The position numbers and the translations under genes are program-made. The notes under the pieces are model-generated. The model did not search any database, had not been told where the DNA came from, and saw only the letters and a program-made list of their open reading frames with translations. From a virus: DNA of 64,000 nucleotides. Numbering within the stretch: the first letter of the stretch is position 1; the number at the start of each line of letters is the position of its first letter. Below are positions 188 through 17,819 of the stretch, piece by piece. The stretch lies in the IMG/VR virus record IMGVR_UViG_3300045988_147571; one strand, given 5' to 3'.

Positions 188-1245
188 AAATCTTTCTCCT
201 CTTTTGTGCACAAGACAATTTCTCTTCTAATCGGGCATCCACCTAAGCAATCACATTGACGACTACAACATTTACAAGAATTCCTGAAATGGCTTCTGAA
301 ATCATCGAACACATCTGAATCCCATGCTTCCTGAATAGTGTGTTCATTAAGATCAACTGCCCACTTAAGTTCCTGATTGTCAAAGCTACATGGCAGCATT
401 TTCATATCTGACGTAATATAACCAGAAAATCTTGCTCCTTCACATGGTTCCAGAGTAGAGTTTAAAATCTCTTTTGTAAAATTCAGCAGTCCTGGCACTG
501 AACATGAATCAAATCCAATCTGAAATTTATAATCATGTTTATCTATCAGAGAGAAAAATTCTTTGACTCTTTCGTCATCAGGAGACAACACATTTGCCTG
601 AGTGCCTAAACCTACTGGCTTATGAAGTAAAAAGATTACTGCGTTGATGCCATTTGGAAAATCTTCCTGCTGCAAATGTTGAATAGCTTCATCAATAGAA
701 TTCCGTCCAAGTACATAATGAATATTGGTAGTAACTCCTGCAGATATTAACATGTTAATTGCTTTCTCTGTATATTCGCTTCTATACCAAGAAATAGCTA
801 CGGCTCCACAGTATTTTTTACAAAGAGATACAATCTCATCTGTAAACCCTAAGCCAGAACTTGTAAAGTTTGGTACAATTCCTTGTGATCTACAATACTT
901 AAGGATTTCTTCAAAGTCTTCATGCTGATCCACATCCCCTCTACCACCAAGAGCAAATTGAAATGTTTTCCCTTTGCATTCATCTACTATTCTTTTGAAA
1001 TTCTCAAGAGACATATTAGGCTCCTGTGTATGCAGCCCATTCTGATAACACTGAACTCCTGACTGAATGCATAAACCAGATGCTCCATGGACACAATGCC
1101 CCATAACACCGATGTCCAACAAAGCAGGAAAATCTCTCATAAATGGTTCCTTTCCTGTTGTAAGATCATCAGACCGGATATACAATCCTGTCTCCGGATC
1201 AAATGTTTCTACAAAGTTGTTTTTCTTGTCGTGATATTTATACAT
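181..1245 (-). CDS. Radical-SAM/SPASM-like Fe-S enzyme with non-canonical N-terminal Cys motif
   Basis: ORF track 181..1263; the likely start is ATG 1245, preceded by GAGAGGAGAA. It has LGGRGD (GGE-like) and a C-terminal CKCCSRQCDCLGGCP SPASM/twitch-like cluster. The N-terminal triad is GHCVHGASGLCIQSGVQC rather than CxxxCxxC. Confidence 0.5.
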   Translation of the reverse strand: MYKYHDKKNNFVETFDPETGLYIRSDDLTTGKEPFMRDFPALLDIGVMGHCVHGASGLCIQSGVQCYQNGLHTQEPNMSLENFKRIVDECKGKTFQFALGGRGDVDQHEDFEEILKYCRSQGIVPNFTSSGLGFTDEIVSLCKKYCGAVAISWYRSEYTEKAINMLISAGVTTNIHYVLGRNSIDEAIQHLQQEDFPNGINAVIFLLHKPVGLGTQANVLSPDDERVKEFFSLIDKHDYKFQIGFDSCSVPGLLNFTKEILNSTLEPCEGARFSGYITSDMKMLPCSFDNQELKWAVDLNEHTIQEAWDSDVFDDFRSHFRNSCKCCSRQCDCLGGCPIRREIVLCTKEEKDLC

Positions 1246-1513
1246 GAATTTTTCTCCTCTCAATTAATTTTCTTATCCCTGTGGACTCAATCATTTCATT
1301 ATCCCATGACCAACCCTTTGTCTCGTCCTCAAAAAAAGCTAAGGTTTCTCCATGATTAAAAACGGATTTAATTGTATATGTATTCCCACAAAATACAATC
1401 ATTTTTCTTGTAAAAACTGAAGGTGTTGGTATGTTTCCCCGGCGATTAAGCCCATATTCTTTTTTCATTCGTTCCCAAGATTTAATTCTTACTTTCTGTC
1501 CTACTTTATACAT
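1238..1513 (-). CDS. Small tail-motif protein, SH3-like type (paralog array 1)
   Basis: ORF track. N-terminal MYKVGQKVRIKSWERM, internal FCG, C-terminal LIERRK tail. The GAG AGG AGA codons form the SD for ATG 1245. Confidence 0.75.
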   Translation of the reverse strand: MYKVGQKVRIKSWERMKKEYGLNRRGNIPTPSVFTRKMIVFCGNTYTIKSVFNHGETLAFFEDETKGWSWDNEMIESTGIRKLIERRKIHV

Positions 1514-1782
1514 GCCTGTCTCCTTGTGATTAACATTGATAAGTCTCCTTTTTCAAACATTTCACTTGTAAAAGTCCAATAGTTTCCAGTATTCAAATAA
1601 TAAGCATCATTAAAATTTCGTATATCAATTATCCGTAACTTTTTACCACAATACTTTTTCATTTCTTTTACAAAATACCAAGTCCTGCATGCAATAGAAC
1701 CATGAATAGTGGTGCCAAACTCCTCGGCCATATCATCCCATTGGCGAATCTGGACAATGTCTCCTATTTTGTATTGCCTCAT
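1501..1782 (-). CDS. Small tail-motif protein, SH3-like type (paralog array 1)
   Basis: ORF track. YKIGDIVQIRQWDDM, KKYCG, LITRRQ tail (ACA AGG AGA CAG GC ATG). Overlaps both neighbours. Confidence 0.75.
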   Translation of the reverse strand: MRQYKIGDIVQIRQWDDMAEEFGTTIHGSIACRTWYFVKEMKKYCGKKLRIIDIRNFNDAYYLNTGNYWTFTSEMFEKGDLSMLITRRQACIK

Positions 1783-2029
1783 ACAAACCTCCTATTGGCT
1801 TAACCATATCCATACTCCATATAAACTTTCCTTCATCTTCTTGGACTCTAAAGAGATTATACCAGCCTGTTGTACTAACAACTGTAACAATAGTGCCACA
1901 GTACTTTTTCATACTTAACATAAAGTCGCCCACACATAATATATATGTTTCGGCTACCCCTTCAGCAATTCCGAATTCTCTAACCATATCATCCCAAGAA
2001 CGAACTTTATACTTTTGTCCTACTTTCAT
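1733..2029 (-). CDS. Small tail-motif protein, SH3-like type (paralog array 1)
   Basis: ORF track. MKVGQKYKVRSWDDM, KKYCG, AIQNRR tail. Has a 50-nt out-of-frame overlap with the next gene. Confidence 0.7.
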   Translation of the reverse strand: MKVGQKYKVRSWDDMVREFGIAEGVAETYILCVGDFMLSMKKYCGTIVTVVSTTGWYNLFRVQEDEGKFIWSMDMVKPIGGLYEAIQNRRHCPDSPMG

Positions 2030-2300
2030 TTCTCACCTCAATCATTCTTTTCAAGCTAGGTACGACCAACATATTCTCAGTAAACAAAAATTGTTCTGAA
2101 GTGTTTATACTTTTTCCTTGGTATACTCCTTCATAAAGAGGATCTTTTCCAATTATACGTATCTTGTCTCCACATAAAACCTTCATCCTAGATAAAAATA
2201 GTATGTCTCCAAAATCTAAAGCTCCAAGATAATCACCATTAGAAGCCTTTTTAAGTTCTTCCCAAGTTTTTAAATAATATGTTTTCCCTATTTTTAACAT
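2007..2300 (-). CDS. Small tail-motif protein, SH3-like type (paralog array 1, divergent)
   Basis: ORF track. MLKIGKTYYLKTWEEL, VLCG, MIEVRNE tail. Confidence 0.7.
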   Translation of the reverse strand: MLKIGKTYYLKTWEELKKASNGDYLGALDFGDILFLSRMKVLCGDKIRIIGKDPLYEGVYQGKSINTSEQFLFTENMLVVPSLKRMIEVRNESRTKV

Positions 2301-2305
2301 AGTCT

Positions 2306-3382
2306 TTACCCAACCATCATGACATCAACTGCATTTTTAAATTTTCTCAGCATTTCCGGATTAGAAGAAATGATTTTCTTTCTTCTTGCTCTTGCCTTTC
2401 CATGCTTATTAATATAACGAGTTTCTAAGTTGTGCCAATTAATTGGAGTCATTTCTCCCATCTTTTTGTATACTTTTCTATATGTAACCATTCCTCCATT
2501 GCTCTTATCTCCATATTTTTCTACAAGAGGCGCAATAATAGAATCTGTTGCATCCTGATTACAGATTGATTCATATTTCTCATACAGATCCCCTAATGCA
2601 GCACTAAAGATAGACCTCAGAGTATCGTTGGCGTAGACAACATCATAAGTACTAAATTTACTTACTGGATTATGCTTCTCTTTATAATCTTTCACTTCCT
2701 GATCCCAACAAATACCATAGTTTTTATTCATATACTTATATACGGTTTTCATTACAGAACCACGATCAGAAAATTTATCACAAGTAGTGAGAGCATCAAT
2801 CATCTGATACATATCATTTTTCCATTTTTTGCCTGGATCCTCTACTTTCTTTACAGGAAGAGGTGTCGTAACAGCTTTCTCCTGAACCATCATAGAAGCT
2901 AAACGTCCCATATCTTCAAAGATTTTATCTACTTTTCTTTCTAATACTTCAATTTTGTTATTGAAATCTGGCAACTGTAACTGGATAACATTCGAGTTAG
3001 TGACTTTCTTCTCAAGGAAAGCTGCTGCCAATACATCTTTTGCCTTGAGCTGATATGTTATAAGTTTTTCTGCTATCCCTGGTTGTTCCTTTCTCATAGT
3101 TGGAGTTACTGAGATTTTAGCCAACCATAATGGTAAATAATCTAACTGTAAGCACATAACATTCTGATTCCCGCCATTAGTAAGGAGGGTAAAATTTTGT
3201 ACCCCCTTTGAAATTACTGAATCCGTCTGCATTTTTCTTCTTTCATATTTAATCCGGTTATCATCTAAACCGATAGCTTCACACACCCAACAAGCACCAA
3301 CCCAAATATTTCCATCAGGATCCTGTGCTGCTTTAAGAATATCTCCGTTAAATTCTACTTCTTTTGCTGTTAATCTATCCAT
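2306..3382 (-). CDS. Antirepressor-like protein (P22 Ant N-terminal-domain type)
   Basis: The N-terminus VEFNGDILKAAQDPDGNIWVGACWVCEAIGLD...VMCLQLDYLPLWLAKISV parallels, from memory, P22 Ant VPFNGQNVLAAKTDAGNVYVAMKPIVEGMGL...MLCMPLKKLNGWLFSI. Confidence 0.5.
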   Translation of the reverse strand: MDRLTAKEVEFNGDILKAAQDPDGNIWVGACWVCEAIGLDDNRIKYERRKMQTDSVISKGVQNFTLLTNGGNQNVMCLQLDYLPLWLAKISVTPTMRKEQPGIAEKLITYQLKAKDVLAAAFLEKKVTNSNVIQLQLPDFNNKIEVLERKVDKIFEDMGRLASMMVQEKAVTTPLPVKKVEDPGKKWKNDMYQMIDALTTCDKFSDRGSVMKTVYKYMNKNYGICWDQEVKDYKEKHNPVSKFSTYDVVYANDTLRSIFSAALGDLYEKYESICNQDATDSIIAPLVEKYGDKSNGGMVTYRKVYKKMGEMTPINWHNLETRYINKHGKARARRKKIISSNPEMLRKFKNAVDVMMVG

Positions 3383-3399
3383 AATACTGTTCCTTTCAT

Positions 3400-3825
3400 T
3401 TAAAATTTATGACACTGCATTTTACTTAATCTTTGAGCACTATAGTAAATCTGGTAATAAGAGAATGTATTATACGCATTTAAAGCGTATAGCTCACCGT
3501 TATGAATTTCTTCTTCTATTTTGGAAATATCGTAAGTACCAGAATAAAACTCTTTTTCGTCTTCAGTAACGTCGTTATAAACTAAATCTATAAGAATCTG
3601 CTTAATCTGATCAACAGTGCCAGATACACGCATGAATCTAATGCCATTAACTATTGAACATGAAATAGCAATAATCCATTCTTCTGCGTCTTCGTAGTCA
3701 GCAAGTGCATTCATTACATCATATTCTCTTTCTCCCTCGAAACAAACATCTGGGAAATCACTTCCGTCATGTATTGCAATAGCTTTTTCGCCATCATTAT
3801 TAAATCTTTCAGTCCATCTATTCAT
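3400..3825 (-). CDS. Hypothetical protein
   Basis: ORF track. TAAATG junction with the upstream gene and an AGAGGTGGAG SD. Confidence 0.65.
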   Translation of the reverse strand: MNRWTERFNNDGEKAIAIHDGSDFPDVCFEGEREYDVMNALADYEDAEEWIIAISCSIVNGIRFMRVSGTVDQIKQILIDLVYNDVTEDEKEFYSGTYDISKIEEEIHNGELYALNAYNTFSYYQIYYSAQRLSKMQCHKF

Positions 3826-4377
3826 TTACTCCACCTCTTTCAACTTCTCCACTGCAAGCTTCAATGACTCTACAAATTCATCATTCAACGCTGTACGGTC
3901 TGGATTTTCGATAAATTTTTCAATATCTTCAATTGCTTTTTCTTCAGGTGTAGAAACTGTCACTTTTCCTGTTTTCACAATTTCAATAAGTTCATCAATG
4001 CCATCTTTCCAGTTGCATGTATTACACAAACTACAGTTACACTTAGTGTTCGTGTAGTGCAATACGCATTCTGAACAACCTCCGTTGCAATCGCTTATAT
4101 CTGCAATACGATTAGCAAACTCTCTTGCCGTCATTTCTTTCGTCCCGAGAAGTTCTGAGGCTTCGTAGAAAGCATCACACTCTACTCCGATACGTACGCT
4201 GTGCACCACATCTTTGTTATTACAAAATTTTAAAATATCTGGAAAATGTTGTCCTGGCAATGGCTTACAATTGCCTTTCGAATACCAATGAAATCCCTGT
4301 TTCTCAGCTTCTTTGAGAAGCATTTCATTTTCTTCTTCTGTCTTAACCAAGATACATGTATTTCTTAAATCAACCAT
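3826..4377 (-). CDS. GF[TH]W-domain paralog fused to a Cys-rich C-terminal domain
   Basis: Track ORF 3826..4434. The likely start is ATG 4377 (AAAGGAGG SD inside the upstream gene), giving MVDLRNTCILV...AEKQGFHWYS, parallel to 5737 and 5975. The C-terminal region has CNGGCSEC and CNCSLCNTC. Confidence 0.65.
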   Translation of the reverse strand: MVDLRNTCILVKTEEENEMLLKEAEKQGFHWYSKGNCKPLPGQHFPDILKFCNNKDVVHSVRIGVECDAFYEASELLGTKEMTAREFANRIADISDCNGGCSECVLHYTNTKCNCSLCNTCNWKDGIDELIEIVKTGKVTVSTPEEKAIEDIEKFIENPDRTALNDEFVESLKLAVEKLKEVE

Positions 4378-4621
4378 CTGCGTTTCCTCCTTTAATTTTG
4401 CTAATACAAGTGTTCCAACCTCGAATCCATGCAAGACTAAGTTTACTTCTCCAATATTCCTCTTCTTTCTCCTCCAGCAATGGCTTCAATGGACACCAAT
4501 TAGGGATTACATCATTGTTCGGAACTCTCCTATCATTCATTGCTCTGCACCAAAATCCGCTTATAAATTTACATTTTCCGCAATTCTCTGGTGTGTCAAT
4601 CACTAATACTGATTTACTCAT
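4370..4621 (-). CDS. Small Cys-containing hypothetical protein
   Basis: ORF track. CGKCKF...WCPL. Its stop overlaps the next start (ATGGTTGA). Confidence 0.6.
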   Translation of the reverse strand: MSKSVLVIDTPENCGKCKFISGFWCRAMNDRRVPNNDVIPNWCPLKPLLEEKEEEYWRSKLSLAWIRGWNTCISKIKGGNADG

Positions 4622-4863
4622 TCAACTCCACCACATTTCACGATTTCAATAACCGTCTGATATAGCGCAGCATTTCTTCCAACCAGTTTTGTTATGTATG
4701 TATCCAACTGCTCCACAACTGCTTCCACATCATAGGCGGTCGGCTGCGCATCAATCATTTTAAACGCACTTTCTGCCGTAATTAAACTGTCTTTTCCTCC
4801 AACTTGCTTGTAAAATAACTCTTCATTCATTGCATCCGCATCAATCAGTCTCATATTCCTCAC
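4618..4863 (-). CDS. Hypothetical protein
   Basis: ORF track. The start may be GTG 4863 or ATG 4854. Overlaps its neighbours. Confidence 0.6.
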   Translation of the reverse strand: MRNMRLIDADAMNEELFYKQVGGKDSLITAESAFKMIDAQPTAYDVEAVVEQLDTYITKLVGRNAALYQTVIEIVKCGGVE

Positions 4864-5323
4864 ACTCCAGTTTTTTCAAATCCTCAATTAACCAGGGTTC
4901 TTCATCTTCCCATTTGATAAAGTCAAACATATTACCATACATATTGCTTGATACATAATAATAACGATCATTATCCTCATCATCAGGTATCCAATAATTA
5001 TCCATAGAATTACGTTTTGGCTTATTATAATAAATACAAAGGTTATCATTGAAGTCTCTTGCAATATATTTAAAATTAGGTAAAATGGCATCAAGGAAGT
5101 TCTTTTCTCTTGATGTAATTGTAGGTTTCTCTATGTATTCTGATTCTGACCATTCATATCGTTTAGTTCTACAACTTTTTTCACCAGTAGAATCATTAAA
5201 TTTACACATATCACATTTAAAACGATCACAAAAAGTAATTTCACTTGACTTTGTAACTGAAAATGAATCTCCTTTGCAAGCAATATCTATAATTTCTTTG
5301 GCAAATTTCTCTCTATTTTTCAT
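4841..5323 (-). CDS. Hypothetical protein
   Basis: ORF track, within the operon. Confidence 0.65.
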   Translation of the reverse strand: MKNREKFAKEIIDIACKGDSFSVTKSSEITFCDRFKCDMCKFNDSTGEKSCRTKRYEWSESEYIEKPTITSREKNFLDAILPNFKYIARDFNDNLCIYYNKPKRNSMDNYWIPDDEDNDRYYYVSSNMYGNMFDFIKWEDEEPWLIEDLKKLECEEYETD

Positions 5324-5332
5324 AAAATCACC

Positions 5333-5743: not shown

Positions 5744-6012
5744 AATTGTTCCTCTTTTCTTTTCAGTATTAAATTTCCTAACGTGCTCACTATATCCTTG
5801 CATTGATAATCACGATTATAGAAATCAGCGGAAGAATTATAACGTACTTCATAGTGTTCATCAAAACGTAATCTTGTTGGAAAGTCACAAAGTATATTGG
5901 TTAATTTAATTCCGGTTGCCCATGTGAAACCTTGATTTTGAGCTTCTTTGATTAACGCTATATATTCTGCTTTATTATTCACCAAAACAGTGCACTTTTT
6001 TAAATTTATCAT
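5737..6012 (-). CDS. GFTWA-domain small protein with LILKRK tail
   Basis: ORF track. MINLKKCTVLVNN...AQNQGFTWATG...FPTRLRF is a paralog of 5975..6283. Confidence 0.7.
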   Translation of the reverse strand: MINLKKCTVLVNNKAEYIALIKEAQNQGFTWATGIKLTNILCDFPTRLRFDEHYEVRYNSSADFYNRDYQCKDIVSTLGNLILKRKEEQLC

Positions 6013-6283
6013 TAGCCATTTCCTTTCTAATCATTATGAGCCTTCGCACTCCTTCAATTAAAACCATGCATTCAGGATAATCTCGTGCACGTCTTCCACG
6101 ACTAGAACCATAATATGTATAATAATTTTTTCTAAATTCTAGCCTCGTTGGAAACCTGCAGAAAACTTTATTTAAAGAATCCCCAGATGCCCATGTAAAT
6201 CCTTGCTTCATAGCAATTTTAGTTATAGCCGAATATTCTTTTATATTGTTGACCAATACAGTAGAATCTCTAAGATCAATCAT
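5975..6283 (-). CDS. GFTWA-domain small protein with LIMIRK tail
   Basis: Track ORF 5975..6295. ATG 6283 overlaps the TGA of the unlisted upstream ORF. MIDLRDSTVLVNN...MKQGFTWASG...FPTRLEF. Confidence 0.7.
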   Translation of the reverse strand: MIDLRDSTVLVNNIKEYSAITKIAMKQGFTWASGDSLNKVFCRFPTRLEFRKNYYTYYGSSRGRRARDYPECMVLIEGVRRLIMIRKEMANDKFKKVHCFGE

Positions 6284-6420: not shown

Positions 6421-6424
6421 TATA

Positions 6425-6697
6425 TTACTGCCTCCTTGCTATTATTAAATGTTCTAAACTGTTTGCCGGAAGTAGCATTGCATTGTTAAAATACCAAGTT
6501 ATTTCTTCATCATCTATTAATAGATGATATTCATCTAATTCAGGATCTGTAATTTTAGTTATTACACAAACTTTCCCACAAAGTTTATACATGTCTTTGC
6601 TGAACCATAATCTTTCCATTGAATTTTCATAATAGTAATACTGCTCACTATTTAAATCTTTTCTAATTACTACTCTATCTCCGACTTCGTACTTCAT
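6425..6697 (-). CDS. Small tail-motif protein, SH3-like type (paralog array 2)
   Basis: ORF track. MKYEVGDRVVIRKDL, KLCG, W-x-F...ML, LIIARRQ tail (GCA AGG AGG CAG TAA). Confidence 0.75.
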   Translation of the reverse strand: MKYEVGDRVVIRKDLNSEQYYYYENSMERLWFSKDMYKLCGKVCVITKITDPELDEYHLLIDDEEITWYFNNAMLLPANSLEHLIIARRQ

Positions 6698-6990
6698 AAT
6701 TTTTCCTTTCTAATTTCTATAAGCTTTGCTAAACATTGAACAGGTTCTAACATTGTGTCACTAAAAACCCATTCCCTTGCTTCATCTCCCAGTGCTAGCC
6801 TATAGTTCATACAGTCAAAGTGTCGCGATGGAACCTTATCTATGATTTTATACGCATGGCCACAGAATTTTTGCATGTTAACGTTAAAAAACAAATATGC
6901 ATTATCGGCACCATTATAATAATATTTTGAGCCACCTTCCAAGCCACTTCTAACTCTCACTATATCACCTATTTTATATTTCTCTTGCAT
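6694..6990 (-). CDS. Small tail-motif protein, SH3-like type (paralog array 2)
   Basis: ORF track. KYKIGDIVRVRSGL, KFCG, LIEIRKE tail. ATGA overlap with the next gene. Confidence 0.75.
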   Translation of the reverse strand: MQEKYKIGDIVRVRSGLEGGSKYYYNGADNAYLFFNVNMQKFCGHAYKIIDKVPSRHFDCMNYRLALGDEAREWVFSDTMLEPVQCLAKLIEIRKEKL

Positions 6991-7247
6991 ATCAAACTCC
7001 TTAACCCATCAACAGGTATCAGCATTGCATCATTAAATACCCATCTATATTCCTCTTTTCCCAGAGATAATCTATAAGTTATTTGATCACAACCAATTGC
7101 TACTATTTCATACTCTCTTCCACGAAATTTTTCCATTGCCTGAGCAAAATACAACTCCTCTTCATAGAATGGATCTGAAAATGGATAACATCGTCCACCA
7201 ATTAAGTCTGTTCGGACGATTACTCTATCCCCAACTTTATATTTCAT
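6969..7247 (-). CDS. Small tail-motif protein, SH3-like type (paralog array 2)
   Basis: Track ORF to 7265. The likely start is ATG 7247, after AAGAGGAGG. MKYKVGDRVIVRTDL, LICKRN tail. Confidence 0.75.
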   Translation of the reverse strand: MKYKVGDRVIVRTDLIGGRCYPFSDPFYEEELYFAQAMEKFRGREYEIVAIGCDQITYRLSLGKEEYRWVFNDAMLIPVDGLRSLICKRNIK

Positions 7248-7473
7248 GTTTCCTCCTCTTATCAATTAGTACAGTTAGTCCTTTGTAAGGAATGAATTCC
7301 TCTGCAGGAAACCAATAATTACTAGCTTCTTCCAGTTCATAAGCTTTTCTTCCAGAAGTTAGTTTTATAATTGATTTTATAGTACATATATTTCCTAATA
7401 GATAATTTATATCTACGCCCCATAGAATACGAGATATATTAGATCTGAGAATCACTTTATCCCCTTTTTCCAT
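7237..7473 (-). CDS. Small tail-motif protein, SH3-like type (paralog array 2)
   Basis: ORF track. MEKGDKVILRS, LIDKRRK tail (AAG AGG AGG AAA C ATG). Confidence 0.7.
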   Translation of the reverse strand: MEKGDKVILRSNISRILWGVDINYLLGNICTIKSIIKLTSGRKAYELEEASNYWFPAEEFIPYKGLTVLIDKRRKHEI

Positions 7474-7705
7474 ACTGTCTCCTTTTGTGAATTGCTAAAA
7501 ATAAAGTACCTTCTGCAGGAATAAATATGCTACAAGGGAAAACATATATTTCTTCCTCTACATAACAATAAGATGTGCTATCATCATCACCTATACGTTT
7601 TATAGTCATAATTTTACCTTTAATTTGTTCCATAGGGATTCCCCATATGAAGTCATATGACCTAAGTAGAATAGGATCAACTATTACTTTATCTCCAACT
7701 TTCAT
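7457..7705 (-). CDS. Small tail-motif protein, SH3-like type (paralog array 2)
   Basis: Track ORF to 7741. The likely start is ATG 7705, after GGAGGAA. MKVGDKVIV, LAIHKRRQ tail. Confidence 0.7.
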   Translation of the reverse strand: MKVGDKVIVDPILLRSYDFIWGIPMEQIKGKIMTIKRIGDDDSTSYCYVEEEIYVFPCSIFIPAEGTLFLAIHKRRQYGKRG

Positions 7706-7706
7706 C

Positions 7707-11772: not shown

Positions 11773-11802
11773 TTGTTCTTCTCCTTTCTTAACTGTAACT
11801 GC

Positions 11803-11832
11803 ATTATAAACCAGTTTGTAAAACTTGTCAAT
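11803..11832 (-). promoter_or_regulatory. Consensus sigma-A/sigma-70 promoter (TTGACA-17-TATAAT)
   Basis: Minus sense reads TTGACA agttttacaaactggtt TATAAT. The -35 is at 11827..11832 and the -10 at 11803..11808. Confidence 0.75.
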
Positions 11833-11851
11833 ACTTTTTACAAACTGGTTT
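11808..11851. repeat. Perfect 16-bp inverted repeat enclosing the -35 box
   Basis: AAACCAGTTTGTAAAA (11808..11823) and TTTTACAAACTGGTTT (11836..11851) flank a 12-nt spacer that contains TTGACA. Confidence 0.85.
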
Positions 11852-12692: not shown

Positions 12693-12715
12693 TTTGTTTT
12701 CCTCTTTTCTTTTAT

Positions 12716-12745
12716 ATAATAAAAAAGAGCTGTTTTCACAGCTCT
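12716..12745 (-). terminator. Rho-independent terminator
   Basis: Minus sense reads AGAGCTGT-GAAA-ACAGCTCT followed by TTTTTTATTAT. Confidence 0.7.
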
Positions 12746-12761
12746 AGTTTTATTTCATTGT

Positions 12762-12995
12762 TTAATAATTAGTTTCTACTAAGTTGGTGAGATACTCAAT
12801 CCCGTGACCACATAAAGCAGTCAGAACTTCATCTAAGATGTCAAGTTCTCCGTCTGTTTCACATGATTCAAGGGCCTGAATAATCCCGTACCCCTTTTCA
12901 TATTCGCTTGTATTCACAAGCTCTTTTGTTATTGTGTCGCCGAGCTTTTCCTCGGCATAGTCGACTCCGTAGAGTCTTTCCTTTGCTGTCTTCAT
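12762..12995 (-). CDS. Hypothetical acidic protein
   Basis: ORF track. ATGA overlap with the upstream gene. Confidence 0.65.
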   Translation of the reverse strand: MKTAKERLYGVDYAEEKLGDTITKELVNTSEYEKGYGIIQALESCETDGELDILDEVLTALCGHGIEYLTNLVETNY

Positions 12996-13309
12996 TTTGA
13001 AAACCTCCTTGATATAATTAATTCTTTAAGATTTTTGGGGTACCTTGTCCAAATTAAATCTTTATCTTCATAGGTCATACTGTATGTAAGGCCATCTACA
13101 GTTGGTTTATATAGAGCATTTATAGAATACCTTTTACTATGATTTAAATTTTCATCATAGCCACTACCCGTCATAAACCCTGTAGCGTTAATAAAACATA
13201 TATTTTGACTGCCGTAATGCTTTGTTTCACAATCGGTAAGGATAATGTAAGTTCCCGCATACATAACAGCTATCATTCCAGACCGGAGCTTCTTCCTTAA
13301 ATCAACCAT
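12992..13309 (-). CDS. Small tail-motif protein (own fold; LIISRR tail)
   Basis: ORF track. The tail TCA AGG AGG TTT TCA AAA TGA supplies the SD for ATG 12995. Confidence 0.7.
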   Translation of the reverse strand: MVDLRKKLRSGMIAVMYAGTYIILTDCETKHYGSQNICFINATGFMTGSGYDENLNHSKRYSINALYKPTVDGLTYSMTYEDKDLIWTRYPKNLKELIISRRFSK

Positions 13310-13547
13310 GCTGCCTCCTTATTATTAAAAAGCGAAGTGGCGAAATAGATATCAGATCCTCTATCCAAGACCACCAATAGTGATAATTTGAGCCACCATT
13401 TCCATTGTGTAATGAAATGTTTTCTTTATAGTAATAAACTAAATATTGGAATGGTTCAAAACTTTTGTCAATATCTTCTATCTGTCCTATACCGTAATAT
13501 TTATGATAAACTATGTCACCTATATTTAATTCTTTAGGATGTTGCAT
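13302..13547 (-). CDS. Small tail-motif protein, Tudor-like GxGxV/LHNG/WW type (paralog array 3)
   Basis: IGDIVYHKYYGIGQI, LHNGNGG, HYWWSW, LIIRRQ tail. Confidence 0.75.
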   Translation of the reverse strand: MQHPKELNIGDIVYHKYYGIGQIEDIDKSFEPFQYLVYYYKENISLHNGNGGSNYHYWWSWIEDLISISPLRFLIIRRQHG

Positions 13548-13770
13548 TTCTTCTCCTTTCTATTAGCTTGCACAAAGACACTGAACGGACAAGAGTAAGT
13601 GAGTTTTCCATACATAACCAATAATGACAATCTGGGCCTCTACCGTTGCCATTATGTAAACATTTATTTTCTTTGTAGAAATAAACCAAACATGGTGCTA
13701 AGCAATGTTCAAACCCTACTACCCTCCCCATCCCATAGTCACTTCGCCATACTATATCACCTATTTTCAT
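13534..13770 (-). CDS. Small tail-motif protein, Tudor-like type (paralog array 3)
   Basis: Track ORF to 13842. The likely start is ATG 13770 (ATGA overlap, GGAAGGAGG SD). MKIGDIVWRSDYGMGRVV, LHNGNG, LIERRR tail. Confidence 0.75.
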   Translation of the reverse strand: MKIGDIVWRSDYGMGRVVGFEHCLAPCLVYFYKENKCLHNGNGRGPDCHYWLCMENSLTLVRSVSLCKLIERRRNATS

Positions 13771-13988
13771 TGTTGCCTCCTTCCTATTATCCAACGTAAT
13801 GATTGGCACTTGGCAACTTCTTCTGGCCAGAACCACCAGCAATGATTATATAGTCCACAACCTCCATCATGAAGCTGATGACTCTCTTTGAAAAAGTATA
13901 TCAAATAAAGACCATCTAAGCCTTCAACAATTACTATACCTTCTCCAAAGTGCTCATGAAACACTTTTTCTCCTATTTCTAATGACAT
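13767..13988 (-). CDS. Small tail-motif protein, Tudor-like type (paralog array 3)
   Basis: IGEKVFHEHFGEGIV, LHDGG, HCWWFW, WIIGRRQQ tail. Confidence 0.75.
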   Translation of the reverse strand: MSLEIGEKVFHEHFGEGIVIVEGLDGLYLIYFFKESHQLHDGGCGLYNHCWWFWPEEVAKCQSLRWIIGRRQQ

Positions 13989-14194
13989 TACCTAGGCTCC
14001 TTTCTGGTATAAGCATATAATCTGGTGCTATCCAGTAGTCTGTATAGTAAATATTTATTCCCATGCTTTTACCATTTTTTTTTTACAGTCATCACAGGAG
14101 GCGTTCTGTCTTCGACGATACAATAATCGTAGGTTTTTGTTGTAGATTTCCTCCAGAAACGATTAAGTTTCACTTTATCACCTACACAATACAT
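13954..14194 (-). pseudogene. Array-3 paralog split by a frameshift at an A10 run
   Basis: ATG 14194 opens MYCVGDKVKL...VMTVKKKW and stops at 14069. After the A10 run (14075..14084) the +1 frame continues GKSMGINIYYTDYWIAPDYMLIPERSLGNVIRNRRKSVS to 13954. That continuation includes the family tail and the SD for ATG 13988. Confidence 0.55.
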
Positions 14195-14420
14195 GTTGCC
14201 TCCTTTTTATCAAAGATGCCAGTGGTGGAACATATTTCATATCTTGGATTTCGTCATTACTGAACCACCAGCCATGGTTATCTTTACAGGATCTTGGCTC
14301 TATTGCACCATCATGTAGAGCATCATTTGCCTTGAAAAAGTATACAAGCTCACTTCCGGGACGGAGTTTTATTACTTTTCCTAGCCCATAAAACGGGTCT
14401 TTAACATAGGTTCCTATCAT
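14178..14420 (-). CDS. Small tail-motif protein, Tudor-like type (paralog array 3)
   Basis: GTYVKDPFYGLGKVI, LHDG, HGWWFS, LIKRRQ tail. Confidence 0.75.
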   Translation of the reverse strand: MIGTYVKDPFYGLGKVIKLRPGSELVYFFKANDALHDGAIEPRSCKDNHGWWFSNDEIQDMKYVPPLASLIKRRQHVLCR

Positions 14421-14640
14421 TTTGTCTCCTTTCTATGAGTAACCTTAACGTAGAAAGATATTCCATATCTGCAATTTCTCTATAACTGAACCACCAACCG
14501 TGATGATCTCCACATGAACCATCCCCTCCATCGTGCAATTCTTTATTTGCCTCGAAGAAAAAGACGAGTCCACTAATACTATCTATTTTGATAACTTTCC
14601 CTAATCCATATACTGGGTGTTTAATATAAGTTCCGATCAT
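14401..14640 (-). CDS. Small tail-motif protein, Tudor-like type (paralog array 3)
   Basis: GTYIKHPVYGLGKVI, LHDGG, HGWWFS, LIERRQ tail. Confidence 0.75.
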   Translation of the reverse strand: MIGTYIKHPVYGLGKVIKIDSISGLVFFFEANKELHDGGDGSCGDHHGWWFSYREIADMEYLSTLRLLIERRQNDRNLC

Positions 14641-14825
14641 TTGCCTTGCCTCTTTTCTATAAAATGTCTCAATGGTTTCTTATGCAAGAGCTTTATTTCA
14701 TCTTTTCTATAAGCCATACAGTCTACAACAATTCTATCATCAATTAAGCCGCTATATAAAAACATTCTATTGTAGGGATGACTATAAGTGACTACATAAG
14801 GATAAAGGACTATACCCTATACCAT
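14637..14825 (-). pseudogene. Degenerate array-3 paralog (in-frame TAG at codon 3)
   Basis: ATG GTA TAG GGT... then GIVLYPYVVTYSHPYNRMFLYSGLIDD...EIKLLHKKPLRHFIEKRQGK. The tail and the KKPL block match 14853..15110. Its TGA overlaps ATG 14640. Confidence 0.35.
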
Positions 14826-14852
14826 ATCAATTTCCCTACTTTCCCGTAAGGG

Positions 14853-15110
14853 TCATATACATATATGTTCTGCATTGACACATTCCTTTCTCTTGGTGAT
14901 CAGATCAATCAGCGGTCTCTTCTTGAGAAACTTGATATGTTTTTTGCCATAGCAGGATGCGTTAGTTATATATCTTCCTTCATAGTATCCAGAGTAAAAG
15001 TTTGGATTATGTTTATAATGGTCTACTATGTAGTGAGAGAACCATAATGATCCATCATAAAAATTTAATTTACCTAAACCATCAGGTGTCTTTACATAAA
15101 TATGTCTCAC
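14853..15110 (-). CDS. Small tail-motif protein (array 3, divergent; LITKRKE tail)
   Basis: ORF track, GTG start after an AAAGGAGAA SD. TPDGLGKLNFYDG. Confidence 0.65.
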   Translation of the reverse strand: MRHIYVKTPDGLGKLNFYDGSLWFSHYIVDHYKHNPNFYSGYYEGRYITNASCYGKKHIKFLKKRPLIDLITKRKECVNAEHICI

Positions 15111-15144
15111 CGTTATTCTCCTTTTCGATTTTATTTACGTGTTT

Positions 15145-15173
15145 ATAATAGCAAACATCTGTTCTCTTGTCAA
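15145..15173 (-). promoter_or_regulatory. Sigma-A-type promoter (TTGACA-17-TATTAT)
   Basis: Minus sense reads TTGACA agagaacagatgtttgc TATTAT. The -35 overlaps the stop codon of 15170..15391. Confidence 0.65.
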
Positions 15174-15391
15174 GCATCTATATAACAGAAACTTCCGGTT
15201 CCTGTATCTAATGTGCAACAGGTATGCTCATACTTCATTATCAGTCGATTAAATTTCTCTTCTGACATTTTTGTTGTGACCTTAAACGGGTGCGCCCAAG
15301 GTGAGTCCACTTGCATTTTATTAGGAAGTAAATATACCGGATTTCCTGCAACAAGCTCTTTATGAGCTTCTCTTCTAGTTACTTTTTTCAT
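15170..15391 (-). CDS. Hypothetical protein
   Basis: ORF track. Confidence 0.6.
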   Translation of the reverse strand: MKKVTRREAHKELVAGNPVYLLPNKMQVDSPWAHPFKVTTKMSEEKFNRLIMKYEHTCCTLDTGTGSFCYIDA

Positions 15392-15514
15392 AATAGTTCC
15401 TTTCTTTAAGCAGCATACTTAAATATCTTGGAGGAAAACGGGTAGCCCTAGATTTCATGCTACCCTTTTGAGCAATACAAGATACTTAAATATACTGCCT
15501 AAGCAGTATATTTT

Positions 15515-15856
15515 TTAAATTACATAGAGTTTTCTACCATTGACGCATGCACAACTCTCGATTAAGCCGTAGCTTCTTAAGGCTTCCAACCCGTTGATGC
15601 CACAGATAGATACAATAGTATCTTCGTAAAGTGCTTCTGCTTTCGGAAAAACAAACAGAAGTTTTTCATAGTAGAGTTTTGCCTTGTACCCCTCCAATTC
15701 TTTAATTCTGTTAAAACACACTTTTCCTAAGCTGGTGTCCAATAATTCCTTTAATGTAGCAATTCTCTTGTCAACACAAGCAATACTTATATCTGTTGAT
15801 ACAAGTGCCTTTACCTCTTCTTCTGTGCAGTTTGTGTATTTTCTTAAAATTATCAT
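15515..15856 (-). CDS. Hypothetical protein
   Basis: ORF track. GGAGGA SD. Confidence 0.65.
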   Translation of the reverse strand: MIILRKYTNCTEEEVKALVSTDISIACVDKRIATLKELLDTSLGKVCFNRIKELEGYKAKLYYEKLLFVFPKAEALYEDTIVSICGINGLEALRSYGLIESCACVNGRKLYVI

Positions 15857-15866
15857 AATGTCCTCC

Positions 15867-16052
15867 TTAAAACATTCTTACCCACGCATCTCCTACTAAT
15901 TCCCATGTTGTAGGATTTAAAGCATAGTCTTTAGGGTTAAACAGTTGCTCATATCTTTCCCGCATTAGTTCCTTTGTAGGAAAGAACTCCTCCTTGTGCA
16001 GGTTTCCTTTGTTATATCCAGTCTTAAAATAGATTCTAAGTTTATATCTCAT
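15867..16052 (-). CDS. Hypothetical small protein
   Basis: Track ORF to 16100. The likely start is ATG 16052, after a GGGAGGAC SD and the upstream stop. Confidence 0.55.
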   Translation of the reverse strand: MRYKLRIYFKTGYNKGNLHKEEFFPTKELMRERYEQLFNPKDYALNPTTWELVGDAWVRMF

Positions 16053-16053
16053 G

Positions 16054-16452
16054 TTAGTCCTCCCTTGCATACTGTGCGAAGTGTTTAAGTCCACCTGCAT
16101 AATGAGCTAATACAACTTCGTCGTCGTACACACGCTTGGTTCCATTGGCATACATGATACATGAAGCAAGATCATACAGCTCCCAACAATCGCTAGAATC
16201 TGCATACCATGAGAATCGATTTCCGTTGGCACATGTAATAGTAATCAAATCTGTTTCTGAATCAACAGACTCTACTTCTGTTACGATTCCTGTTAGAGGA
16301 TAGTAACCATTCATTGTCTGTAATCCAGGAATGTCTATGTGATACTGCCAATGGATTTCGCTTTCTGTTCCATCTGTGAACTCTTCGGCTGCTGCTACAG
16401 GTGTTGCTACTACTAATGCTAATGCTACTAAGATAGATAATAATTTCTTCAT
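16054..16452 (-). CDS. Secreted hypothetical protein
   Basis: N-terminal MKKLLSILVALALVVATPVAAAEE is signal-peptide-like. Confidence 0.65.
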   Translation of the reverse strand: MKKLLSILVALALVVATPVAAAEEFTDGTESEIHWQYHIDIPGLQTMNGYYPLTGIVTEVESVDSETDLITITCANGNRFSWYADSSDCWELYDLASCIMYANGTKRVYDDEVVLAHYAGGLKHFAQYARED

Positions 16453-16530
16453 AATGATTTCCCTTTCTATATAACAATGATAAATTTATAGATATCTACA
16501 TATTGATCTAATTGATAGACAGGTGCCTTG

Positions 16531-16764
16531 TCAAATGAAGTTGACTATCTCCCTTGCAAGATAGCTATACATAACAGACACTGAAATTCTGTGCCAGTTT
16601 CCATTCTGAAACATTAACACAGGAATGTTCATAGGATCCTTTGGACGTTCAGTGCAGATAAACTGAAGTCCATTGCCTCTAATAAATAAGGCTCCTTTAG
16701 GTATTGTGTAACCCAAAAGAGCCTCTTTCCGTTGTATTCTGACAGTTGTGTATTTGTATGTCAT
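16531..16764 (-). CDS. Hypothetical protein
   Basis: ORF track. ATGA overlap with the upstream gene. Confidence 0.6.
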   Translation of the reverse strand: MTYKYTTVRIQRKEALLGYTIPKGALFIRGNGLQFICTERPKDPMNIPVLMFQNGNWHRISVSVMYSYLAREIVNFI

Positions 16765-17255
16765 GCTGACCTCCTCTCTGCTATAGAATCACTCAGAGAT
16801 ACTACAGGTTTCAGTGTGCTAGTTGCCTTGTCAAAGAAGTAGGCATGACTATCTAAAACTAAACCATCTTCTACACATTGAGCATTTACATCTCTGATCA
16901 TCTCATTGATGCCTGAAGGGTCAGTTCCAGGCATGAGAATCACTTCTTCTGTTGAAGACGGGATGACAAAGAAACTTCCAATAAATTGAGCGAAGCGTTC
17001 CATTGCTCCTGGATAAAACAGAGCTATTGCCCCGCAAGAAGTTTTATTGGTTACAATGTAGCCTATAGGAGACTGTGACACCAAAGACGTATAGAATCCT
17101 TCATCATTAAAGGATCCAAAAAGAGCATTTTCCATTGTGCAGAAAATCCCTGGGTAATCTGCCTCCAGTTTATCAAGATAGATTGACTGTCTATCTTCTG
17201 GAGTTTCAAAACTATCATTTCCTGAGAACTGTTTGTAAAATATATTAAGAGTCAT
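16761..17255 (-). CDS. Hypothetical protein
   Basis: ORF track. Confidence 0.65.
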   Translation of the reverse strand: MTLNIFYKQFSGNDSFETPEDRQSIYLDKLEADYPGIFCTMENALFGSFNDEGFYTSLVSQSPIGYIVTNKTSCGAIALFYPGAMERFAQFIGSFFVIPSSTEEVILMPGTDPSGINEMIRDVNAQCVEDGLVLDSHAYFFDKATSTLKPVVSLSDSIAERRSA

Positions 17256-17256
17256 A

Positions 17257-17661
17257 TCAATACCTTCTTTCTAAATAATACGTTTCGCTTGCAAAACGAA
17301 CTAAAGCACCTTCTTCAGCTGCACATATGCTGACAGGAGATGTATTTGTGACAACAGCAGACTTAATATAATCGTCCACTGTCTTTGAGGTTCCGTTGTT
17401 AGAAACCACACAAGATACTGTATCTCCTACTGTGAAGCCTTTTCCTTTGTAGCTCCAGGTGCATTTATCTGGAGATACAATAGATACAGAACGTCCAGAA
17501 ACAAAATAGACAGTGCCCGTCATTGGACGAGTACTGTCTTCGTTTGCTTTGGTCGGCTTAACTACTGCTAATAGGAACAGCAGAGCTATGAATAGCCCTA
17601 ACAGTGATGGGATAATGATTTCCCTTATGAGTTTTCGTTTGATTCTATCTGCCTTATTCAT
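17257..17661 (-). CDS. Membrane-anchored hypothetical protein
   Basis: N-terminal IIIPSLLGLFIALLFLLAVV is a TM helix. Confidence 0.65.
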   Translation of the reverse strand: MNKADRIKRKLIREIIIPSLLGLFIALLFLLAVVKPTKANEDSTRPMTGTVYFVSGRSVSIVSPDKCTWSYKGKGFTVGDTVSCVVSNNGTSKTVDDYIKSAVVTNTSPVSICAAEEGALVRFASETYYLERRY

Positions 17662-17819
17662 AACGATTTCCTCCTAGCTACAATTTCAGCAGAACGTTTT
17701 TCATACATTTCCTTGCTGATTGTCTTTTTATTCCAATATGCATTGCGCACTTCTTCCCAGATACAGGAAAGTTCAAAACTTGTTTTCGCTTGTGCGATTC
17801 TGGTTTTATAATTCTGCAT
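17658..17819 (-). CDS. Unlisted 53-aa ORF with IVARRK tail
   Basis: ATG 17819 follows a GGAGGGAAATC SD. It ends GCT AGG AGG AAA TCG TTA TGA, overlapping ATG 17661. Confidence 0.5.
   Translation of the reverse strand: MQNYKTRIAQAKTSFELSCIWEEVRNAYWNKKTISKEMYEKRSAEIVARRKSL

What the first reader, a model, noticed from the sequence alone, without database searches (positions are those of the whole stretch)
1238..17819. About 20 small early proteins of unrelated folds share a C-terminal L-I-x-R-R-Q tail that is also the ribosome-binding site of the next gene
Members fall in several places:
- Array 1: 1238-2300, 4 genes.
- Array 2: 6425-7705, 5 genes.
- Array 3: 12992-15110, 9 genes including 2 broken ones.
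- The GFTWA paralogs at 5737 and 5975.
- The 53-aa ORF at 17658.

All end in tails such as LIERRK, LITRRQ, LIIARRQ, LIDKRRK, LIISRR, LIIRRQ, LIERRR, IIGRRQ, LIKRRQ, LIERRQ, FIEKRQ, LILKRK and IVARRK.

At the nucleotide level the consensus is YTN ATH NNN AGG AGR CAR N(1-4) ATG. The Arg codons are almost always AGG/AGA, which forms the SD. The next start codon overlaps or abuts the stop.

The tail persists even where the SD has moved (6969: TTA AGG AGT upstream, tail LICKRN downstream).

Two non-exclusive readings:
- (a) An RNA-level constraint, an A/U-rich enhancer plus SD for translational coupling, imprints a pseudo-motif on the proteins.
- (b) The ~25-nt junction is a portable boundary sequence that promotes recombinational shuffling or duplication of small-gene cassettes, or the tail is a shared peptide tag.
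Basis: seen in the sequence. Interest (0 to 1): 0.72.

Follow-up and report, generated by a model that had tools for sequence, protein, structure and literature searches.

The report
Shared tail joining phage gene cassettes
In an uncultured large gut phage, about twenty small proteins from at least five unrelated families end in the same short helix (L-x-x-L-I-x-R-R), whose two arginine codons also serve as the ribosome-binding site of the next gene and mark where whole genes are gained or lost between related phages.

Summary
21 minus-strand genes between 1238 and 17819 carry L-x-x-L-I-x(1-2)-[RK]-R close to the C-terminus. The next ATG overlaps or abuts the stop.

**Statistics**
- Tail Arg codons are 37/37 AGR and 22/37 AGG. 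Elsewhere in the same 20 kb they are 175/254 and 39/254.
- The core motif occurs 11 times in C-terminal stretches and 0 times in 13,919 body residues.

- Arrays 1 and 2 are one SH3-like family, so there are about five unrelated families, not 20 folds.
- 0-15 residues follow the motif.
- "Early" expression is untested.

**The hydrophobic part is a real peptide, not an RNA imprint**
- L, L and I are 100/100/94% conserved between orthologues, against 75% for the gene bodies.
- Synonymous change at those codons is normal.

**Other results**
- R-R(Q) is shaped by the ribosome-binding site (SD).
- Distant homologues of family A lack the tail (0 of 212 domain ends), so it is a clade-specific addition.
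- Two indels between related phages have their crossover inside the tail/SD.
- The function of the helix itself is unknown.

**Best reading:** a dual-coded cassette junction of peptide helix, SD and start codon. It is a new variant of coupled, boundary-mediated cassette shuffling.

The parts
2007..2300 (-). Family A (SH3-like) gene, array 1; degenerate tail LKRMIEVRN at 2028-2054
   Evidence: SD (GAGG) lies inside the tail in another register
1733..2029 (-). Family A gene, array 1; tail LYEAIQNRR at 1760-1786, overlaps the first codons of the next gene by 50 nt
1501..1782 (-). Family A gene, array 1; tail LSMLITRRQ at 1516-1542; AGG AGA is the SD of 1238-1513
1238..1513 (-). Family A gene, array 1; tail IRKLIERRK at 1250-1276; AGG AGA is the SD of the SPASM-domain gene 181-1245
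7457..7705 (-). Family A (short subtype) gene, array 2; tail LFLAIHKRR at 7478-7504
7237..7473 (-). Family A (short subtype) gene, array 2; tail LTVLIDKRR at 7252-7278
6969..7247 (-). Family A gene, array 2; tail LRSLICKRN at 6978-7004; the SD (AGGAG) is in the L-R-S codons and the next ATG (6990) lies inside the tail
6694..6990 (-). Family A gene, array 2; tail LAKLIEIRK at 6706-6732. This is a hybrid tail produced by a tail-to-tail crossover that removed one cassette present in relatives
6425..6697 (-). Family A gene, last of array 2; tail LEHLIIARR at 6431-6457, predicted as helix 81-89
14853..15110 (-). Family B' gene, first of array 3; tail LIDLITKRK at 14886-14912; downstream neighbour degraded in this phage
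   Evidence: consensus sigma-70 promoter at 15173->15145
14637..14765 (-). Truncated family B' gene; tail LRHFIEKRQ at 14646-14672
   Evidence: intact 77-79 aa in L003, L004, L006
14401..14640 (-). Family B gene; tail LRLLIERRQ at 14422-14448
14178..14420 (-). Family B gene; tail LASLIKRRQ at 14196-14222; left end of a two-cassette indel relative to L004
13954..14194 (-). Frameshifted A-like gene (ORFs 14069-14194 and 13954-14064; intact 79 aa in L001); tail LGNVIRNRR at 13969-13995 overlaps the next gene's start
13767..13988 (-). Family B gene; tail LRWIIGRRQ at 13773-13799; right end of the two-cassette indel
13534..13770 (-). Family B gene; tail LCKLIERRR at 13549-13575
13302..13547 (-). 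Family B gene; tail LRFLIIRRQ at 13311-13337
12992..13309 (-). Family D gene (105 aa, unrelated body); always closes array 3; tail LKELIISRR at 13004-13030
5975..6283 (-). Family C (GFTWA, alpha/beta) gene; tail VRRLIMIRK at 6023-6049; SD AAGGA in the R-K-E codons
5737..6012 (-). Family C gene; tail LGNLILKRK at 5755-5781, distal part of predicted helix 71-90; SD GAGGA in the K-E-E codons
17658..17819 (-). 53-aa ORF with weak tail AEIVARRK at 17667-17693. The R-R is the SD (AGGAGG), but L-x-x-L-I is absent, so this is probably an SD imprint only

Best explanation
The tail belongs to a dual-coded cassette junction. Each small gene in these leftward operons ends with a short linker and a helix of about 10 residues, L-x-x-L-I-x(1-2)-[R/K]-R.

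**Shown**
- The helix's hydrophobic triad is kept by selection on the protein.
- The two Arg codons (AGG-AGR) are the Shine-Dalgarno site of the next cistron. That cistron's ATG follows 4-10 nt later and overlaps or abuts the stop, the layout expected for translational coupling.
- The helix is not part of the ancestral domains. Distant homologues of family A lack it.
- It sits on at least five unrelated bodies: SH3-like A, B, alpha/beta C, D and Cys-rich F22.
- Between related phages, two unequal crossovers fall inside the tail/SD and add or delete whole cassettes in frame.

**Inferred**
- The tail spread to unrelated bodies by in-frame recombination at these junctions. Such joins survive because they keep the downstream translation start intact.
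- The helix has a common role of its own, such as docking, oligomerisation or stabilisation.
For: **Coupling and dual coding**
- Codon bias in the tails is 37/37 AGR and 22/37 AGG.
- Orthologues switch R-R to R-E while keeping the SD.

**Protein-level selection on L/L/I**
- Orthologue statistics are, the entropy pattern, and Leu codon usage.
- The tail's I and R are 2 of only 4 invariant columns among 9 family A paralogues. L, I and R are 3 of 7 invariant columns in family B.

**Unrelated bodies**
- hhalign between tail-trimmed profiles gives probability 0.1-1.7% between A, B, C, D and F22. With tails included, the aligned columns lie at or next to the tail in most pairs, and are the tail alone in several.
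- AF2 predicts family A as an all-beta SH3-like domain plus helix 81-89 (pLDDT 92). It predicts family C as alpha/beta plus helix 71-90 (pLDDT 86.5).

**Tail is an addition**
- A tail-less family A profile finds 6328 proteins. None of 212 domain ends in 135 long homologues is followed by the motif.
- At least 6 of the 15 single-domain representatives lack it.

**Clade-specific**
- In an IMG/VR pattern scan, hits outside this clade fall in all three frames.

**Junction crossovers**.
Against: - No experiment or partner supports a function for the helix. AF2 gives only moderate confidence for the family C tail (pLDDT 52-64).
- A and B may share an SH3-like fold, so their tails could be ancestral to both.
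- Indel ends at gene boundaries are expected from survivorship alone, and only four indels were examined. Metagenomic chimeras P0061 and P0128 have breakpoints inside gene bodies.
- DNA identity between tails of different families is only about 8-10 nt, so there is no trace of recent transfer between families.
- Ile ATA is enriched in tails (16/27 against 122/447), which shows some RNA-level pressure next to the SD.
- In 3 of 21 genes the tail overlaps the next gene's N-terminal codons, so its conservation there is confounded.
Confidence: 0.55

Rival explanations
1. Pure RNA-level imprint. The SD plus an A/U-rich enhancer forces the codons, and the peptide has no function.
For: - Tail Arg codons are exclusively AGR and AGG is enriched four-fold.
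- Ile ATA is enriched two-fold.
- Every tail is followed by a coupled start.
- The second R changes to E when the SD register shifts.
Against: - L, L and I are 100/100/94% conserved with normal synonymous turnover.
- All six Leu codons are used at background frequencies.
- The x codons are not A/U-rich.
- The basic pair and L-I persist where the SD has moved (6969, 6694, family C).
- Ten other embedded-SD junctions use frames 2/5/3 and show no L-I.
Confidence: 0.07
2. Common descent only. All tail-bearing genes descend from one ancestral small gene by tandem duplication. The bodies diverged beyond recognition, while the ends stayed because they are doubly constrained.
For: - A and B are both likely SH3-like or Tudor-like, from weak Pfam hits to SH3_15 and CarD_TRCF_RID.
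- Some B proteins start M-K-I-G-D-I-V as A proteins do.
- C and D share the N-terminus M-[IV]-D-L-[RK].
- All of these genes sit in tandem arrays.
Against: - AF2 gives a beta-barrel for A and an alpha/beta fold with no PDB match for C.
- F22 is Cys-rich.
- The widespread family A domain has no tail outside this clade, so the tail was added after the domain arose.
- Trimmed profiles show no relationship.
Confidence: 0.12
3. The tail is mainly a functional peptide tag: a docking, oligomerisation, membrane or turnover signal for a common partner. It was acquired or kept by selection on each family. Its use as an SD and as a crossover site is secondary.
For: - The strongest conservation in these fast-evolving proteins is in the tail.
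- L-x-x-L-I is identical on unrelated bodies.
- A P/G/S/N-rich linker precedes the helix.
- The distal helix of family C is predicted with low confidence (pLDDT 52-64), which could mean it protrudes from the domain.
Against: - No partner is known.
- The distance from tail to the true C-terminus varies from 0 to 15 residues, unlike classical C-terminal degrons or cargo peptides.
- The spacing between L-I and R-R varies by one residue between A and B.
- In family A the helix has pLDDT about 85, which may mean it packs on the domain.
Confidence: 0.2
4. Chance resemblance among C-termini in an AT-rich genome.
For: HicA-like and other proteins occasionally end in similar strings (cluster 77). 28235-29098 ends LAMRKRRQ with no coupled gene downstream.
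Against: The core motif gives 0 hits in 13,919 body residues against 11 in C-terminal stretches. Five unrelated families carry it, where about 0.1-0.25 would be expected by chance (my estimate frequencies).
Confidence: 0.01

Closest known systems
Translational coupling with the downstream SD embedded in the upstream ORF (general bacterial and phage operon feature; for example comEB-comEC in B. subtilis, bioRxiv 10.1101/2020.12.30.424838, listed)
   Same: Same-strand cistrons overlap by 4-50 nt. The SD lies 4-10 nt before the ATG, inside the preceding coding sequence. The embedded SD dictates the codons of the upstream protein's end.
   Different: Here the SD falls in one reading frame (R-R) in 14 of the 19 junctions of families A-D that have an embedded SD, rather than in random frames. 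It is joined to a protein-level conserved L-x-x-L-I helix shared by unrelated families.
[quoted passage not shown] 2010, PMC2839356; PMC4122927)
   Same: Short repeated regulatory motifs sit at the boundaries of small non-essential genes. Indels between close relatives end in those motifs.
   Different: PeSLs are intergenic sigma-70 promoters plus terminator stem-loops. Here the repeat is about 25-30 nt of coding sequence plus SD, acts at the level of translation, and is also a conserved peptide. No stem-loop or promoter was found at the junctions.
Terminal targeting peptides shared by unrelated phage or encapsulin cargo proteins (T4 N-terminal capsid targeting sequence; encapsulin C-terminal cargo-loading peptides). 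From my own knowledge, not tested here
   Same: A short conserved terminal peptide is attached to proteins with unrelated bodies.
   Different: No capsid or partner link is shown. The tail is not at a fixed distance from the terminus. The tail also encodes the SD.
Multi-repeat proteins built from the same SH3-like (Mind bomb / SH3_15-like) domain as family A
   Same: The family A body matches 6328 proteins. Many have 2-8 tandem copies in one polypeptide.
   Different: In those proteins the repeats are joined by ordinary linkers without L-x-x-L-I-x-R-R (0 of 212). In this phage each copy is a separate, coupled cistron ending in the tail.

Membership tests
Translationally coupled overlapping cistrons with embedded SD | Adjacent same-strand ORFs whose start overlaps or abuts the upstream stop | tested here: met
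   Gaps run from a 50-nt overlap to 4 nt beyond the stop for 20 of 21 tail-bearing genes
Translationally coupled overlapping cistrons with embedded SD | SD-like sequence 4-12 nt upstream of the start, inside the upstream ORF | tested here: met
   AGGAG(G), AAGGA or GAGG at 4-10 nt
Translationally coupled overlapping cistrons with embedded SD | Downstream translation depends on upstream translation | not testable with these tools
   Needs reporter fusions or ribosome profiling
PeSL / boundary-sequence-mediated modular shuffling | Repeated conserved motif at cassette boundaries | tested here: met
   21 junctions in the window; the same in 28 related loci
PeSL / boundary-sequence-mediated modular shuffling | Indel or replacement endpoints between close relatives lie in the repeats | tested here: met
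   Two indels cross over inside the tail/SD and two end at the start codon. Only four cases were examined, and survivorship bias is possible
PeSL / boundary-sequence-mediated modular shuffling | The motif is an intergenic sigma-70 promoter plus terminator stem-loop | tested here: not met
   The junctions are coding with no spacer. Strong promoter-like sites occur only at operon heads (15173->15145, 11831->11803), and there is a terminator at 12726-12745
SH3_15 / Mind bomb-type SH3-like domain (family A body) | Pfam gathering score | tested here: not met
   14.3 bits against a cut-off of 24
SH3_15 / Mind bomb-type SH3-like domain (family A body) | SH3-like beta-barrel fold | tested here: met
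   AF2 pLDDT 92. Best Foldseek match is the Mind bomb MZM-REP/Mib repeat (E 4e-3, TM 0.55), followed by PetP, ribosomal L21e, Src SH3 and PWWP. E-values are weak
Extreme C-terminal peptide signals (ClpX C-motif-2 type, encapsulin cargo peptide, MinD-type membrane helix) | Fixed position at the very C-terminus | tested here: not met
   0-15 variable residues follow the motif, set by the overlap with the next gene
Extreme C-terminal peptide signals (ClpX C-motif-2 type, encapsulin cargo peptide, MinD-type membrane helix) | Binding to a defined partner or membrane | not testable with these tools
   No partner can be inferred from sequence
RiPP-type precursors recognised by an adjacent radical-SAM/SPASM enzyme | Short unfolded precursor with a recognition peptide, encoded next to the maturase | tested here: not met
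   Only array 1 adjoins the SPASM gene 181-1245. The proteins are confidently folded domains. Arrays 2 and 3 lie 5-13 kb away

The most novel reading that the evidence does not exclude
The L-x-x-L-I-x-R-R helix is a portable docking or targeting peptide. Through it, 20 or more structurally unrelated small phage proteins are directed to one common host or phage partner, or co-assemble with each other. Because its coding sequence is also the translation start region of the next cistron, any new gene body recombined in frame upstream of a junction would be both expressed in step and tagged.
Probability: 0.25. Interest if true: 0.8.

Novelty: new variant of a known kind. Interest (0 to 1): 0.6.

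Why it matters
Embedded ribosome-binding sites and boundary-mediated gene shuffling are both known. Here one stretch of about 27-30 nt does three things:
- It encodes a peptide under strong purifying selection on unrelated proteins.
- It provides the SD for the next gene.
- It is a site where crossovers between relatives add or remove whole gene cassettes.

If the helix has a common partner, it would be a simple handle for studying about 20 orphan phage proteins at once. It would also be an example of how phages build plug-in slots for new accessory genes. It is a clean natural case for separating RNA-level from protein-level constraint in overlapping signals.

Tried and rejected
- **Megablast against GenBank phages.** The 16.7-kb region gave only two short hits. 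tblastn of family B found nothing credible. No cultured relative is known.
- **The search for related loci with the family A alignment.** It failed because no stretch was conserved enough. Single proteins found only 3 loci. Relatives were obtained through the look-up of encoding contigs and a DNA pattern scan.
- **A and B homologous?** hhalign gave 85% with tails but 2.6% and 0.2% without them, so the signal was the tail itself.
- **A general feature of phages?** Rejected. Outside this clade the DNA pattern falls in all three frames.
- **Tail as a follower peptide for the neighbouring SPASM/radical-SAM enzyme.** Rejected as unsupported (see the membership test).
- **Tail as a ClpX-type or other extreme C-terminal degron.** Unlikely, because the residues after the motif vary in number and sequence.
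- **Arrays read as one poly-SH3 protein by frameshifting.** Considered because distant homologues are multi-repeat proteins. I saw no slippery site in the overlaps while reading, but I made no systematic scan.
- **Stop-codon recoding in the apparently ORF-poor 55-64 kb.** Rejected. It is one open ORF running off the window.
- **Literature.** Searches for an earlier description of SD-imposed C-terminal motifs or of shared tails in phage small-gene arrays found nothing specific.
- **Model coordinates.** They were not available, so I could not check whether the helix packs on the domain.

Full report
**Setting**

Bases 1-19,723 of the window are densely packed with minus-strand genes. Plus-strand genes begin near 21.5 kb and include Bro-N, PhoH, an intein-bearing 1021-aa protein, a tape-measure protein and three tRNAs. 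Identical or near-identical proteins occur on metagenomic contigs of 160-260 kb labelled Caudoviricetes sp. from gut samples. No cultured relative was found. Strong AGGAGG sites precede most genes. Consensus sigma-70-like promoters lie at 15173->15145, just upstream of array 3, and at 11831->11803. A bidirectional terminator lies at 12726-12745, just after array 3 and its two trailing genes. "Early" expression is plausible but untested.

**Observation check**

With a regular expression I find 21 ORFs carrying [L/I/V]-x-x-[L/M/A/F/I/V]-[I/V]-x(0-2)-[R/K]-[R/K/N/Q/E] near the C-terminus.

The next start codon lies between a 50-nt overlap with the stop and 4 nt beyond it. In 14 of 21 the Arg-Arg codons (AGG-AGR, once AAG-AGG) are the SD, 4-10 nt before the ATG. 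In the other 7 the SD is displaced by a few codons but still lies in or next to the tail:
- in L-R-S in 6969
- in R-K-E in 6694, 5975 and 14853
- in K-E-E in 5737
- in E-V in 2007
- upstream of the tail in 1733

The motif is far beyond chance:
- The core pattern has 11 C-terminal hits and none in 13,919 body residues. The loose pattern has 18 versus 4.
- Tail Arg codons are 37/37 AGR and 22/37 AGG, against 175/254 and 39/254 elsewhere in the same 20 kb.

Corrections to the description:
- 0-15 residues follow the motif, read from the overlap with the next gene.
- 2007, 1733 and 17658 are weak versions.
- In 1733, 6969 and 13954 the tail overlaps the first codons of the next gene. In 1733 and 13954 the R-R is the K/E-I-G-D/E start motif (ATAGGAGA) read in another frame.

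**How many kinds of protein?**

Arrays 1 and 2 are one family, A: K-V-G-D-x-V ... M-x-K-x-C-G ... W-x-F-x-x-x-M. Array 3 is family B/B', plus one broken A-like gene and one family D gene. The GFTWA genes are family C, which also forms the N-terminal domain of 3826-4377. Relatives carry a further Cys-rich family, F22, just beyond the left edge of the window.

Profile-profile comparison with tails removed gives probabilities of 0.1-1.7% between A, B, C, D and F22. The A subtypes recognise each other at 49-96%. With tails included, the best alignments between families lie at or next to the tail in most pairs, and cover the tail columns alone in several of them.

AlphaFold2 results:
- A (6425-6697): an all-beta SH3-like domain plus helix 81-89, which is LEHLIIARR (pLDDT 92). 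The best PDB matches are Mind bomb Mib repeats and other SH3-like domains.
- C (5737-6012): an alpha/beta domain ending in helix 71-90 (pLDDT 86.5, falling to 52-64 in the tail). It has no PDB match and only uncharacterised viral matches.

B is probably SH3/Tudor-like, but that rests on weak hits only. "Unrelated folds" therefore holds for about five families, not for 20 proteins.

**The tail is an addition, not part of the domains**

A profile of tail-less family A finds 6328 proteins among 1.84 billion representatives. Many have 2-8 tandem copies of the domain. In 135 long homologues, none of 212 recognisable domain ends is followed by the motif. At least 6 of the 15 single-domain representatives lack it, and those that carry it look like members of this phage clade.

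An IMG/VR scan for TTAATANNNAGGAGRCARN{1,4}ATG returned 130 matches spread over all three frames (38/24/35, plus 33 without an ORF). About 30 of the 38 in-frame matches are family B genes of this same clade. The design is clade-specific.

**Protein level or RNA level?**

I compared 32 orthologous pairs between the window and three relatives that are 76-90% identical in DNA across these arrays.
- The three hydrophobic positions are 100%, 100% and 94% identical in amino acid, against 75% for 2119 body codons.
- Synonymous differences at those codons are 0.26, 0.26 and 0.14, against 0.20 in bodies.
- All six Leu codons occur at background frequencies.
- Relative entropy is concentrated in codon positions 1-2 of the L, L and I codons and is near zero in the x codons and third positions.
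- Among paralogues, the tail's I and R are two of four invariant columns in A. L, I and R are three of seven in B.

So L-x-x-L-I is a selected peptide feature.

The basic end is different. Its codons are fixed as AGR. In orthologues of 6425 the end reads ...LIIARRQ*...LVMTREATS* (AGG-GAG-G) or ...LILLREVI*, which keeps an SD but not R-R. Ile ATA is enriched two-fold, a sign of some RNA-level pressure next to the SD.

Small genes outside families A-D that also embed the next SD do so in frames 2/5/3. They read G-G, E-E and the like, with no L-I upstream. The frame-0 preference (16/9/4 overall) therefore belongs to the tail families.

**Junctions as crossover points**

- *Array 2.* Relatives have an extra cassette (A30) between the orthologues of 6694 and 6425. 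The window's 6694 tail, LAKLIEIRKEKL, is a hybrid. Its 5' part matches the tail of the orthologue (…CLGGLICKRK). From the CTT-ATA/GTA (L-I/V) codons onward it matches the A30 tail (…LSRLVEIRKE) and the following start region. One cassette is removed exactly and in frame.
- *Array 3.* The window has two cassettes more than L004. Both ends lie in ATA-xAA-AGGAGG-CAA-CA.
- *Family C copy-number difference and an HTH gene inserted in L006.* These end at the start codon (ATGATTG, ATGATAG).
- *Array size.* Across 28 related loci array 3 holds 4-9 cassettes and always ends in D.

Caveats: only four events were examined, and selection alone would favour boundary endpoints. Two metagenomic chimeras (P0061, P0128) have breakpoints inside gene bodies.

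**Most likely explanation**

The unit of linker, helix, SD and ATG is a dual-coded cassette junction.

Shown:
- SD use of the Arg codons
- overlap geometry
- protein-level selection on the helix
- absence of the helix from distant homologues
- its presence on unrelated bodies
- crossovers within it

Inferred:
- The tail spread to new bodies by in-frame recombination at junctions. Such joins survive because the downstream translation start stays intact.
- The helix has a shared role of its own.

What that role is remains open. It could be a stabilising cap; the pLDDT of about 85 in family A may mean it packs on the domain. It could be a docking or oligomerisation helix, given the preceding P/G/S/N-rich linker, the low-confidence distal helix in C, and the identical L-x-x-L-I on different folds. 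I give the composite reading 0.55. The rivals are in the rival list: pure RNA imprint 0.07, single ancestral gene 0.12, functional tag as the primary cause 0.20, chance 0.01.

**Comparison with known systems**

The junction works like ordinary translational coupling with an embedded SD. It meets the sequence-level criteria for that, but dependence of downstream translation was not testable. It also works like the PeSL boundary cassettes of T4-type phages, which mediate indels of small non-essential genes (PMC2839356). It is not a PeSL, because there is no promoter or stem-loop and the repeat is coding. It resembles terminal targeting peptides only in being a shared terminal peptide. A fixed C-terminal position was tested and is not met. 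I found no earlier description of a conserved peptide tail that doubles as the SD and as a crossover site. The library searched is incomplete.

**Limits**

- There is no expression, binding or structural data.
- Distant-homologue analysis was done only for family A.
- Orthologue pairs are not independent samples.

Noticed in passing
window 55326-64000 (+): One uninterrupted ORF of at least 2,891 codons runs off the right end of the window. It codes for a giant protein. It is missing from the ORF lists only because it is open-ended.
   Followed up: partly
window 35182-38247 (+): A 1021-aa protein with a LAGLIDADG_3 domain at residues 303-375, which suggests an intein or homing-endonuclease insertion.
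   Followed up: no
window 181-1245 (-): A SPASM-domain (radical-SAM-like) protein is translationally coupled to the last gene of array 1. It has 27% identical homologues annotated as radical SAM proteins in T4-like Klebsiella and Enterobacter phages.
   Followed up: partly
window 13954-14194 (-) and 14637-14765 (-): Two decayed cassettes. The first is an A-like gene split by a frameshift (intact at 79 aa in L001). The second is a truncated B' gene (intact at 77-79 aa in L003, L004 and L006).
   Followed up: yes
window 12992-13309, 5737-6283, 3826-4377 (-): Families C and D have unrelated bodies but share the N-terminus M-[IV]-D-L-[RK] as well as the tail (LKELII in D and in one family C paralogue of relatives). 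Both ends of a cassette may therefore be exchangeable. By my rough estimate this is only marginally beyond chance.
   Followed up: partly
proteins P0061 and P0128 (metagenomic relatives): Chimeric ORFs. P0061 joins the N-terminus of the 6969 type to the C-terminus of the 6425 type. P0128 joins a family C body to the C-terminal third of the 1733-type family A gene. Both are deletions with breakpoints inside gene bodies.
   Followed up: partly
family A body (e.g. window 6458-6697): The SH3-like domain of family A is very widespread: 6328 representatives at E <= 1e-3. It often occurs as 2-8 tandem repeats in single proteins of up to 1681 aa. Its function is unknown (phrog_7488).
   Followed up: partly
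window 28235-29098 (+): This plus-strand gene ends ...KLAMRKRRQ* with no coupled gene within 130 nt. It resembles only the basic end of the tail and is probably coincidental.
   Followed up: no
L006 2319-2525: An HTH_26 gene is inserted between two family B cassettes in one relative. It reuses the resident start codon (ATGATAG) and brings its own SD (GGAGGAG) for the next cassette.
   Followed up: yes
L001 15849-16169, L004 15408-15731 (left of the window in relatives): A small protein with an N-terminal hydrophobic stretch that looks transmembrane and a J-domain-like HPD motif (...KAHPDNGG...). It follows the SPASM gene and is itself followed by another tail-bearing family A gene and the Cys-rich F22 gene.
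   Followed up: no
window 8608-9588 (-) and 2306-3382 (-): A Peptidase_M28-like protein and a P22 antirepressor-type (P22_AR_N) protein lie between the small-gene arrays.
   Followed up: no
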